Shown: in pieces, positions 6,001 to 9,000 of the stretch
Layout of the letters: every line of letters begins with the position of its first letter
Numbering within the stretch: the first letter of the stretch is position 1
Source: Fidelibacterota bacterium
Lineage (GTDB): Bacteria > Fidelibacterota > Marinisomatia > Marinisomatales > TCS56
DNA length: 13,324 bases
Direction: 5' to 3'
NCBI GenBank assembly: GCA_043822705.1
Contig: JBDRBK010000071.1
Span: 1-13,324, forward strand
Position numbers: made by a program

Positions 6001-9000
6001 GCTGACGGATTTGAAACCTACGAGGCCAGTGTATTCATCGATGTGATCGGCTGGAATCTGATCGACGGCGACCACTCCACCGAGCTGTTTTCCAGCGGCT
6101 TGAAAAAGGAAATCAGCAGCTCGTTCAATCAAAGATTCATCGTCGATTATCTGATCGATGAAATCGCTGCGGCCGACTTTGACGCGCTGGCGATACCCGG
6201 CGGATTCGAGGAATATGATTTTTATCAGGGGGCCTATTCCACCGCTTTCCTGAACCTGATCCGGGAATTCCACCGCCAAAACAAGCTGATCGCTACGATC
6301 TGCGTAGCCGCCCTACCGTTAGGCAAGAGCGGCGTGCTCGCCGGCAGGCAGGGTACGACCTACAACCTGAAGGCGGTGCGGCAGGATGCCCTGCGAACCT
6401 TCGGGGTCACGGTGCTGAACCAGCCGATCGTGCGGGACGGCAACCTGATCACCTCCTGGAACCCGGCGACGGCGATCGACGTCGCCCTGCTCCTGCTGGA
6501 ATTGCTGACCACCCGCCAAAATGCGGATCACATCCGGAAAATAATGGGCTTTGAATAACAATTACCGGACCGCAGGCGGTCGGACCGGTTTGTTGCCGTC
6601 TCGCGCAAAAACTTCTTTCAAAATCAACCATTTCCGGTGTAGAATTCGTCGAATCGGTAAATGGGTAACTACGAGTCTTCGAATTAAAAATTACAATTTT
6701 AGTGAAATACTCCGGTTAAAACGCAGTTGTAAGTGTGTCGAGTGTTGGAGCACGTGGCAAAATTTGGTGAGCAAATAAATGTTGAAAAAGAAAGATTCAA
6801 GAAAAGACCCAAAAGAGTACATGGAACTAGCCGTTGAGGTTATGAAAGAATCAATTCCTGAACGGAAGAAAAACGATCCAAGCCCTTATGTTGGAGCAGT
6901 ACTTGTTTTTCCAGACGGAACAGTGGAAACTGCTTACAGAGGGGAACTACGGGAAGGTGATCATGCCGAATATACCCTGCTCGATAAAAAGAACCAACAT
7001 AAGGAACTTTCTGATTGCTGGCTTTTTGTTACACTGGAACCCTGCGCCCCCGGAGCCAGGAACGAACCTAAAGTAAGCTGTGCTGAACGAATTGTCAACG
7101 CAAGAATTTCAGAGGTGTGGTTTGGTATTGAAGATAAAAACCCCACTATTGATCATGCAGGAATTGAACACCTGATTGAAAACGGAGCAAAGGTACATCA
7201 ATTTTCCCCCGAGTTTCATAAGGAGATCGAAGAAATAAACAAGGAATTCATGAAATGGGCTAACATAAAAAACAATGAAGCTAAAGCAAAGATACAAGCC
7301 CCTGACCATTTAGATAAGCGTGCAATAGCCACCAACATGGACAGCTTATCAGAAGAAGCCCTTCAAAAATTCATAACTGAATCTGGAAGAAACAGCACTC
7401 CGAGATCCAAAGAATTCCTGCAGGAACTCAAGGAAATGGATTTATTAGAGTATAGTGAAAAAACTAAAAACTATTTACCTACAGGAAATGCCATACTTCT
7501 CTTTGGCAAAAACCCAAGAAATAAATTCCCACAATCATCTGTAAAAGCAAAAGTCCAGTATCCTGACGGGAAAACGGGTACTGCAACTTTTGATGATGCG
7601 CTGGTATTAGTTCCTGATAAAGTTGAGGAATGGTTACTTAAAGTGTTGCCGGCAAGTATTGACCGTAAACAGTTTAAAGCTAGGCAGGTCCCTTCCTTCC
7701 CGGTTGAGGTAGTCAGAGAAGCTATAATTAATGCCATTGCCCACCGAGATTATGCCAAAGGCGGTGCAAAAGTACAGTTGGATATATTCAACGATAGAAT
7801 TTCAGTTAAAAGCCCTGGTGAACCAGTTCCACCGATTACTATTGAGGCAATGAAGAACTTTACAGCTACTTCCTACAGCCGTAATAAAAAACTAACCTAT
7901 ATTTTCAATGAAATGGATTACATGGAGGAAACAGCTATTGGCATGGAAACTTATAAATCAATCCGTGAAAAATACCAATTACCCCTTCCGATTATTGATT
8001 TTGATGGGCTTAATGTAGTGGTAACATTTCCGAGAACTATTGAGGCTGTTAAAAAAATTGGCGGCGAGGCTATCAGTATGCTTACAGAGGCTCAAATAAT
8101 AGGGTATGAGTGGCTCAATGCAATTGGTGAAGCGAGTACCCGTGAATATTCTGCTCATTTCAATATCGGGTATAAAACAGCTCAAAGACACTTGGCAAGA
8201 ATGAAAGAACTTCACCTCATTAGCGATAATGGAGAAAATAGTAATTCGCCTAATTACAGGTACGTTGTTATTAACGTTAAATAGCATGGACAGGCACATG
8301 GACAAGATGTCCAAGCTGTTGATTATATATAAAAGGACATAGCAAGGTTGGACATAGAGTTGGACATTGTGTCCAAGTACAAATAATAAAAAGCACAATA
8401 CTCCAACAATGGCTATGAATCACAGTGCTATGCACCGCACTTCAAAGCCAGGTCTTTTAGCAACTGCTCTCACTCAAATATAATCGTCTTCTTGACATAT
8501 ATCAGTATCCGGTGTCAGCGGTACCTGCCGTATTGCCGGGTCCAGCCGTCGGCAATCGCCAGAAATTCAGCATAGCCGTTGGTGCGGATGAACTCCAGCG
8601 CCTGGCGGTATTTTTGGTACTTGTAGCCGTTCTTCCCCAGAAAGCTGTTCAGCGCCGCGCAGGACTGGTATTCGCCGCAATCGGCGCAGGAAGCCAACGC
8701 TTTGGTCAGACAGCAGACCTTCATCCGACAGCGTGCCTTGGACAGGTCGCGGCTGCCGTCGGCATAGCCCAGCTTGCAACCCCGGCAGCGGCCCTCCCGC
8801 AGTTCGGGGCAGCGGCCGCAATAGGCGCCGCAGCAGCCGATGGCTTCGATACTCATCTCAACACCCCTAATAAGTGTTCCCGGCCCCCAGTTTTTCCTGC
8901 CAGATTGCCTGCAGTTCCTTCAGGTCGTCGCCGAACCGGCTGGCGCTCTGGTCGTCCTTCATTTCCAGCTCTTCCAGGATTTCGAAGGTAAAGGCCTGCG

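What a model noticed while it worked through the whole genome (the two positions that open the first line are those of the whole stretch)
6779..8284. Two copies of a single-gene Zn-deaminase-HATPase_c_4-wHTH fusion that rides in restriction/defence islands
g01117 and g01309 (C82:96467-97954, 40% identical) fuse an intact HxE...PCxnC nucleotide deaminase to the HATPase_c_4 and HTH module that normally carries a Schlafen/AlbA nuclease. The family is patchy, moves between phyla and often sits inside restriction or other defence loci, so it is a candidate single-gene anti-phage deaminase.
Evidence so far: Domains and motifs. The best 120 homologues all share the fusion. 3 of 151 class genomes but 88% identity to a Balneolaceae and 71% to a Thermoplasmatota copy, no shared neighbours in 20 loci. 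PADLOC scan of 50 of 87 neighbouring ORFs from 14 loci found type I or IIG RM, SIR2-HerA, Hma, dGTPase or DarG genes in 6 loci. No PADLOC deaminase family matches. Searches 106, 116 and passages of PMC3239186 showed no such fusion.
(Added by a program. Inside this text positions count along the whole contig: contig position 1 is position 1 of the stretch shown here. "Call 12" and the like, gene names such as g00115 and contig names such as C1 are that model's own, and its searches are not shown. The text may have been shortened before it was handed on; [...] marks where a part breaks off. The agent that wrote the report below was given it as the finding of a first reader that could run no searches.)

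Follow-up and report, generated by a model that had tools for sequence, protein, structure and literature searches.

The report
Deaminase gene with matching DNA lock
A mobile one-gene enzyme that often sits inside bacterial anti-virus gene clusters is followed by a short patterned DNA site whose letters change in step with the enzyme's own DNA-binding tip, suggesting that it controls itself by gripping the tail of its own gene.

Summary
The fusion is real: an intact RibD-derived Zn-deaminase, a GHKL ATPase (PF13749) and a winged helix, on a low-GC insert, with a 40%-identical second copy in the genome. Defence association now has a background: 66 of 145 immediate neighbours of homologues hit PADLOC, against 7 of 147 random host genes. 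Neither local copy has such a neighbour. Its half-site follows the winged-helix recognition helix and wing. Rules set on 78 loci predicted three bases in 19 of 28 held-out loci (5.4 by chance). Each copy's array occurs only at its own locus. Best reading: a back-up defence effector that binds its own 3' operator and limits its own expression. Boldest reading: the DNA array is the antitoxin or sensor. Binding, defence and substrate are untested. This scan noted the family and a box array before on other DNA (e1-3037239, e1-2152294); ten paper searches found no description.

The parts
6560..8510 (.). Low-GC insert (39-43% GC vs 58% in flanks) holding the gene and its array
6744..6750 (+). GTTGGAG, reverse complement of CTCCAAC at 8401-8407: possible left remnant of an integron-cassette (attC) junction
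   Evidence: role inferred
6779..8284 (+). Gene for the 501-aa deaminase-GHKL ATPase-wHTH fusion (P0001)
6809..7258 (+). RibD-derived Zn-deaminase domain (aa ~11-160): H62-A-E64, P88-C89-x11-C101; R54 and R94/P97/K98 invariant; lacks RibD's two conserved His
7316..8038 (+). Middle subdomain plus GHKL ATPase (Pfam HATPase_c_4 at 7763-8029); catalytic E314-xxx-N318 at 7718-7732
   Evidence: E/N role from 10.64898/2026.05.29.728809
8072..8269 (+). Winged helix; recognition helix aa 465-477 (K466-T-A-Q-R-H471) and long wing aa 483-495; least conserved part, swapped between close relatives
8286..8314 (.). Array unit 1: half-sites ATGGACA (8286), ATGGACA (8298), inverted TGTCCAA (8308); starts 1 nt after the stop codon
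8348..8376 (.). Array unit 2, 62 bp after unit 1: TTGGACA (8348), TTGGACA (8360), inverted TGTCCAA (8370)
8401..8462 (-). attC-like site: CTCCAAC core, bottom-strand hairpin at about 8410-8450 (z -2.55), degenerate right end
   Evidence: no integron integrase over the cut-off in the genome

Best explanation
A one-gene back-up defence effector with a built-in 3' operator. SHOWN: an intact Zn-deaminase sits where related GHKL-wHTH proteins carry a Schlafen nuclease; the gene inserts into R-M and BREX operons, cassettes and islands; directly behind the stop codon lies a six-box array (two units, 61-63 bp apart) found only at its own locus, and its bases follow the wHTH helix and wing. INFERRED, about 0.88: the wHTH binds this array, as an ATP-dependent oligomer spanning both units on one face of the helix. 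INFERRED, about 0.5: the bound complex blocks RNA polymerase at or just before the stop codon, so excess protein is made from non-stop mRNA and destroyed. This negative feedback keeps a toxic enzyme scarce, as with LacI at its own 3' end. When infection disturbs ATP, the DNA or the complex, the brake lifts. INFERRED, about 0.75: the output is anti-phage or abortive. Substrate guess: free (d)NTP or nucleotide pool about 0.55, tRNA/RNA about 0.3, DNA about 0.15. wHTH and array are exchanged as one block, which gives each copy its own specificity (the two copies here use TTGGACA and CCGGACA).
For: Array in 75 of 84 loci vs 3 of 81 upstream, 2 of 79 further downstream and 1 of 84 shuffled; held-out 32 of 37 vs 1 of 33 upstream. 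Unit spacing 61-63 bp in 51 of 57 pairs, about six helical turns. No consistent T-tract after the palindrome, no Rfam hit. Same core motif in pairs of loci: close body and same helix 55 of 68; close body and different helix 4 of 279; distant body and same helix 46 of 81; distant and different 46 of 1545. Column 469 in the helix is the top covarying column for motif bases 3 and 5; wing columns 484-493 are top for base 1. Motif changes: 14 on a wHTH tree, 29 on the body tree, 37 shuffled. Independent pairs on the body tree: 7 of 7 (p 0.016) and 6 of 6 (p 0.031). Held-out prediction of three bases 19 of 28 vs 5.4 by shuffling; 15 of 23 vs 4.4 for wHTHs under 70% identical to any training locus. 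Full units occur only at the own locus in G000. First unit within 12 nt of the stop in 56 of 78; a GalR block lets translation run to within about three codons of the operator, followed by SsrA tagging (PMC13584721). PADLOC neighbours 66 of 145 vs 7 of 147; 12 loci are flanked on both sides by genes of one R-M, BREX or Hma-like system. The same PF13749 ATPase drives tetramerisation of an anti-phage Schlafen-Argonaute through an ExxxN motif. The host has no riboflavin pathway.
Against: No binding, expression or defence data. Helix and array lie under 120 bp apart, so co-inheritance explains part of the covariation; on a wHTH tree without the helix only 1-3 independent pairs remain per rule, all in the expected direction or uninformative, none significant. 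Two of four rules miss significance on the body tree (p 0.125); rules were set post hoc and seven registers were fixed by hand. In 22 of 78 loci the first unit is 14-118 nt past the stop, too far to truncate the ORF. A tight roadblock would also cut expression of co-directional hsdR, hsdM or pglZ behind the gene. Neither local copy has a PADLOC neighbour, and 35 of 77 loci have none. The background is one host's ordinary genes. Schlafen-HisKinase constructs were among the groups tested in E. coli, but the two positives of seven were other fusions (PMC13056530). One of 84 loci (L044) and 5 of 37 held-out loci show no strong unit.
Confidence: 0.45

Rival explanations
1. DNA guard. The array is the antitoxin or sensor: the few molecules are held inactive while docked on it, and phage-driven chromosome degradation, a DNA-mimic anti-restriction protein or loss of the element releases an active deaminase. 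The same logic would make the gene addictive.
For: The site is strictly cis and unique. Its geometry is conserved even when it lies 14-118 nt from the stop. The gene sits inside type I R-M and BREX operons, which are targets of DNA mimics (recalled). Rapid lock-and-key turnover suggests conflict. It avoids the problem of silencing downstream R-M genes.
Against: One array holds only one or two oligomers, so it needs very tight expression control, which brings back feedback. In the Schlafen-Argonaute the ATP tetramer is the active form. No precedent found.
Confidence: 0.27
2. The array is not read by this protein. It is a recombination or module-exchange site, or a passenger, and covaries only by linkage; the protein is still a defence effector.
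For: Units with other cores are stacked behind the cognate pair in about 12 of 78 loci, often in 62-bp register. wHTH swaps are frequent. Too few independent pairs within the wHTH tree.
Against: The covarying columns are the recognition helix for inner bases and the wing for the outer base (long wing to A/T 27 of 28, short wing to C 46 of 50). A helix not in the training set (R469 with N470-H471) goes with G3 plus C5 (L150). No recombinase is linked to the gene.
Confidence: 0.1
3. Activator or tether rather than brake: the array recruits the oligomer to switch it on, to act locally on nascent RNA or DNA, or to tune the downstream R-M gene.
For: 61 of 72 nearest downstream ORFs are co-directional (the ORF calls are mechanical). 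Many basic residues are invariant in the deaminase.
Against: Downstream genes are not shared between loci, and the window copy has a convergent neighbour. No promoter signal above chance in the array.
Confidence: 0.12
4. Housekeeping or metabolic regulator, such as a riboflavin-pathway deaminase with a DNA-binding domain.
For: The closest profiles and structures of the deaminase are RibD.
Against: Far below RibD cut-offs (52.8 vs 156 bits); no reductase domain; RibD's His residues replaced. The host (93% complete) has no ribD, ribA, ribH or ribE match. No regulon. Patchy, 3 of 201.
Confidence: 0.04

Closest known systems
Schlafen-GHKL(PF13749)-wHTH proteins ('Schlatpase', 10.64898/2026.05.29.728809; pSlfn HisKinase-HTH, PMC13056530; BREX back-up effectors, PMC12839542; structure 3LMM)
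   Same: Same GHKL ATPase with ExxxN, C-terminal wHTH, single gene, horizontal spread, insertion in R-M and BREX operons without fixed partners.
   Different: A Zn-deaminase replaces the Schlafen RNase. A cognate six-box DNA array that covaries with the wHTH follows the gene; none is mentioned in the passages I read.
RibD/RibG deaminase domain (2B3Z, 4G3M; RibD-like clade of PMC3239186)
   Same: Fold, HxE and PC-xn-C, D-x-N/D-P motif after the strand.
   Different: No reductase. The His before HAE is Arg (R54) and the His in the CxxC insert is absent. No riboflavin context.
Nucleotide-depleting defence deaminases (dCTP deaminase, AvcD, RADAR RdrB; recalled, not from a call)
   Same: A deaminase as the likely anti-phage effector.
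   Different: No PADLOC model of these matches; different clade and architecture; no separate sensor gene or RNA antitoxin seen.
LacI 3'-end operator with SsrA tagging (described in PMC13584721, citing Abo et al. 2000)
   Same: A protein's binding site lies at the 3' end of its own gene; two sites could be looped by an oligomer.
   Different: Here the site is dedicated, travels with an enzyme gene, diversifies with the wHTH, and in 22 of 78 loci lies too far from the stop to truncate the ORF.

Membership tests
Zn-dependent cytidine-deaminase fold | HxE and PC-xn-C catalytic motifs | tested here: met
   78 of 78 loci; Pfam; fold
RibD-like deaminases | Conserved His in the CxxC insert (PMC3239186 table) | tested here: not met
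   Position 91 is P in 73 and K in 5 of 78; alignments
RibD-like deaminases | C-terminal reductase and riboflavin-pathway role | tested here: not met
   No reductase domain; no ribD/ribA/ribH/ribE match in the 93%-complete host
Schlatpase (Schlafen-GHKL-HTH) | N-terminal Schlafen/AlbA_2 nuclease with Ex4(E/D)xK | tested here: not met
   No AlbA_2 hit; the deaminase fills aa 11-160
Schlatpase (Schlafen-GHKL-HTH) | PF13749 GHKL ATPase with catalytic ExxxN | tested here: met
   E314 and N318 in 78 of 78; role
Schlatpase (Schlafen-GHKL-HTH) | C-terminal HTH | tested here: met
   Model; HTH Pfam hits in relatives
Schlatpase (Schlafen-GHKL-HTH) | ATP-driven tetramerisation | not testable with these tools
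   Needs biochemistry
Back-up effectors embedded in R-M/BREX operons | Gene lies next to or inside the core operon | tested here: met
   30 of 77 loci have an R-M, BREX, DISARM or Hma-type immediate neighbour, 12 on both sides; not true of the two copies in this genome
Back-up effectors embedded in R-M/BREX operons | Phage protection or abortive infection | not testable with these tools
   No experiment
Known defence deaminases (dCTP deaminase, AvcD, RdrB; recalled) | Match to their profile models | tested here: not met
   PADLOC hits only pAgo-associated middle domains and weak HTH models
Integron gene cassette (window copy) | Complementary core sites on both sides and a bottom-strand attC hairpin | tested here: inconclusive
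   GTTGGAG/CTCCAAC pair and hairpin z -2.55, right end degenerate
Integron gene cassette (window copy) | Integron integrase in the genome | tested here: not met
   No TIGR02249 match over the cut-off; assembly incomplete
LacI-type 3' roadblock autoregulation | Operator close enough to the stop codon to truncate the mRNA | tested here: inconclusive
   56 of 78 within 12 nt, 22 of 78 at 14-118 nt

The most novel reading that the evidence does not exclude
A double-stranded DNA array encoded in cis is the antitoxin and sensor of a single-gene immune enzyme. The protein is disarmed while bound to its own array and is released when phage destroys or mimics host DNA. Specificity is rewritten by swapping wHTH and array together, following a short readable residue-to-base code. 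The 11-13-bp repeats seen in or behind 13 of 24 other PF13749 genes suggest the same logic could run through the very large Schlafen-GHKL-HTH class.
Probability: 0.25. Interest if true: 0.92.

Novelty: new variant of a known kind. Interest (0 to 1): 0.76.

Why it matters
It gives a concrete, testable job to the wHTH of one of the commonest uncharacterised prokaryotic defence scaffolds (Schlafen plus GHKL occurs in over 60,000 proteins according to 10.64898/2026.05.29.728809). It may also explain why constructs cloned without their 3' DNA could behave badly. The two copies in one genome, with different arrays, make a ready cross-swap experiment. It adds a RibD-derived deaminase with a changed pocket to the candidate immune effectors, and a small natural set of wHTH-operator pairs with a predictable code.

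Tried and rejected
Homodimer prediction: no verdict, score 0.00; not used either way. Public reads: only short contig pieces, none over the array; uninformative. Viral contigs: no relative with the single query; 57 partial matches with the alignment, none full-length. Plasmids 0 of 128 and phages 0 of 28 matches cover 80% of the protein. tRNA genes: none in 22 sources. The array as RNA family, terminator or promoter: no Rfam hit in the window, no consistent T-tract, promoter and terminator counts at chance level; the palindromes can fold but the 62-63-bp phasing argues for duplex DNA. Regulon: rejected, full units only at the own locus. Riboflavin role: rejected. The careful tree did not finish; FastTree was used. 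The ESM Atlas returned only clusters of the same fusion. One search was set too loosely and listed only unrelated papers; none of the five listed held PF13749. Supplements of PMC12839542 and PMC3239186 could not be read and bioRxiv supplements were not seen; they may list this fusion.

Full report
Observation. The window holds a 501-aa ORF at 6779-8284 on a 39-43% GC insert in 58% GC DNA. Pfam finds a deaminase at aa 11-116 and HATPase_c_4 at aa 329-417. The model (pLDDT 81) ends in a winged helix and matches 3LMM best, then RibD structures. A second copy on C82 is 40% identical. The family is large and patchy: all 120 listed homologues have both domains, 3 of 201 class genomes match, and loci come from many phyla and from Methanolobus. 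No full-length copy was found in viral contigs, phages or plasmids.

The enzyme. H62, E64, C89, C101 and the ATPase E314/N318 are invariant in 78 of 78 loci. The deaminase is closest to RibD but far below its cut-off. Two of three alignments put R54 where RibD has a His before the HAE motif, and the His that PMC3239186 lists for the RibD CxxC insert (passages) is absent. The 93%-complete host has no match to ribD, ribA, ribH or ribE. It is therefore a RibD-derived enzyme with another job; the substrate is not shown. The same PF13749 domain hydrolyses ATP through an ExxxN motif and drives tetramerisation in a Schlafen-Argonaute (10.64898/2026.05.29.728809, passages and section 5).

Defence context. 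I scanned the nearest upstream and downstream ORF of 78 loci (145 ORFs from 77 loci, each cut to 600 aa; ORFs called mechanically). PADLOC hit 38 of 73 upstream and 28 of 72 downstream ORFs, 7 of the latter weak PsyrA hits; 42 of 77 loci had a hit. Thirty loci had an R-M, BREX, DISARM or Hma-type neighbour, and 12 were flanked on both sides (hsdS-X-hsdR or hsdM, hsdR-X-hsdM, pglX-X-pglZ, helicase-X-methylase). The same scan of 147 ORFs from ten random host regions gave 7 hits, none an R-M core gene. Limits: the control is ordinary genes of one host, and neither local copy has a hit. PMC12839542 (passages) describes Schlafen-kinase-wHTH proteins as back-up effectors in such positions. PMC13056530 (passages and section 6) tested seven Schlafen fusions including the HisKinase group, and its two positives were other fusions.

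The missed part. Directly behind the stop codon are two units, each a half-site, a direct copy 12 bp on, and an inverted copy after 3 bp: 8286-8314 and 8348-8376. Of 90 distinct loci, 6 were truncated or ran off the contig. An agnostic detector found a unit in 75 of the remaining 84, against 3 of 81 upstream, 2 of 79 further downstream and 1 of 84 shuffled. Successive same-core units are 61-63 bp apart in 51 of 57 cases. Each copy's full unit occurs only at its own locus in the genome. It matches no Rfam family and lacks a consistent T-tract.

Lock and key. For covariation I dropped L044 (no unit), two frameshifted loci and three near-duplicates, leaving 78, and fixed the register by hand in seven. 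Pairs sharing helix residues 466-471 share the core motif whether the body is close (55 of 68) or distant (46 of 81); pairs with different helices rarely do (4 of 279 and 46 of 1545). Residue 469 covaries best with the inner bases and wing residues with the outer base; a long wing goes with A/T in 27 of 28 and a short wing with C in 46 of 50. The motif needs 14 changes on a wHTH tree, 29 on the body tree and 37 when shuffled. Independent pairs on the body tree give 7 of 7 and 6 of 6 for two rules and p 0.125 for two others; on the wHTH tree there are too few pairs, so linkage is not fully excluded. As a held-out test, 37 of 82 new loci were full-length with enough flank; 32 had a strong unit against 1 of 33 upstream controls, and 28 of the 32 were in standard register. 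Fixed rules predicted base 1 in 25 of 28, base 3 in 23 of 26, base 5 in 25 of 28 and all three in 19 of 28 (shuffled 5.4; no shuffle of 2000 reached it); for wHTHs under 70% identical to training loci, 15 of 23 (shuffled 4.4). About 12 loci keep extra units with another core behind the cognate pair, some doubtful, which looks like a record of earlier swaps.

Mechanism. I take binding of the array by the wHTH as likely (about 0.88). What binding does is open. The first unit starts within 12 nt of the stop in 56 of 78 loci. PMC13584721 (passages and section 6 part 1) shows that a repressor block gives truncated, SsrA-tagged protein ending about three codons before the operator, and cites LacI as a natural case. 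This supports a feedback brake. Against it stand the 22 more distant arrays and the co-directional R-M genes behind the array. The main rival is a DNA guard, in which docking keeps the enzyme off until phage degrades or mimics DNA. The two can work together.

Wider class. Of 30 loci of other PF13749 genes from the host's phylum, 24 had a long enough C-terminal part. Thirteen carry 11-13-bp direct repeats in the linker coding region (8) or around the stop (6), against 0 of 24 in two controls; they lack the six-box layout. Most look like Schlafen fusions by their N-termini, read by eye.

Mobility. The window copy is flanked by GTTGGAG and CTCCAAC with an attC-like hairpin, but no integron integrase passes the cut-off, so a relic cassette is possible but not shown. 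The second copy lies between 54-nt direct repeats.

Novelty. Ten searches found no paper on the fusion or the array; only listings were seen for papers not named above, and passages for 10.64898/2026.09.30.754977. The library lacks most subscription papers, and supplements could not be read. Earlier notes of this scan describe the family (e1-3037239) and an array of boxes (e1-2152294) on other DNA; I found the array, before that look-up. Verdict: a new effector variant of a known scaffold, with an undescribed cognate DNA element that may prove a new control principle.

Noticed in passing
L094-L123 (other PF13749 genes of the host phylum): 13 of 24 carry 11-13-bp direct repeats, in frame before the wHTH (tetrapeptide repeats) or around the stop codon; possibly the same kind of self-binding site.
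   Followed up: partly
L005, L006, L025, L027, L050, L059, L068, L071, L076, L082, L088 (70-260 nt after the stop): Extra array units with a different core are stacked behind the cognate pair, often in 62-bp register.
   Followed up: partly
L001:10221-10274 and 12148-12201 (C82): 54-nt direct repeat (85% identical) on both sides of the second copy, with relatives on C57; a 32-nt perfect palindrome at L001:10056-10087 has relatives on five other contigs.
   Followed up: partly
L001:12425-12565: The last 140 nt of C82 are shared with the ends of four other contigs, probably an insertion-sequence end.
   Followed up: no
G000 whole genome: No match to ribD, ribA, ribH or ribE in a 93%-complete genome: likely a riboflavin auxotroph.
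   Followed up: yes
window 5170-5450: GC-rich imperfect short repeats between two genes, with a related copy on C115.
   Followed up: no
P0124, P0126, P0158, P0161, P0262: Longer family members with 130-185 extra unannotated residues; P0262 has an Rce1-like (CAAX protease) domain in front of the same GHKL-wHTH module.
   Followed up: no
L006, L016, L034, L035, L050, L062, L070 (downstream gene): A small gene with a weak PsyrA (DprA-like, name recalled) hit follows the array in seven loci.
   Followed up: no
L011-L014, L024 flanks: attC-like boundaries suggest that several homologues are integron cassettes (by eye; L012, L013, L024 picked up).
   Followed up: partly
L029:7820-9700: By eye the gene lies between a tRNA 3' end and an integrase start.
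   Followed up: no
L019, L043, L022, L051, L058: Frameshifted or prematurely ending copies; L019 and L043 keep their arrays.
   Followed up: no
L222:4828-5223: A viral contig with a match to the deaminase domain only, 39% identical.
   Followed up: no
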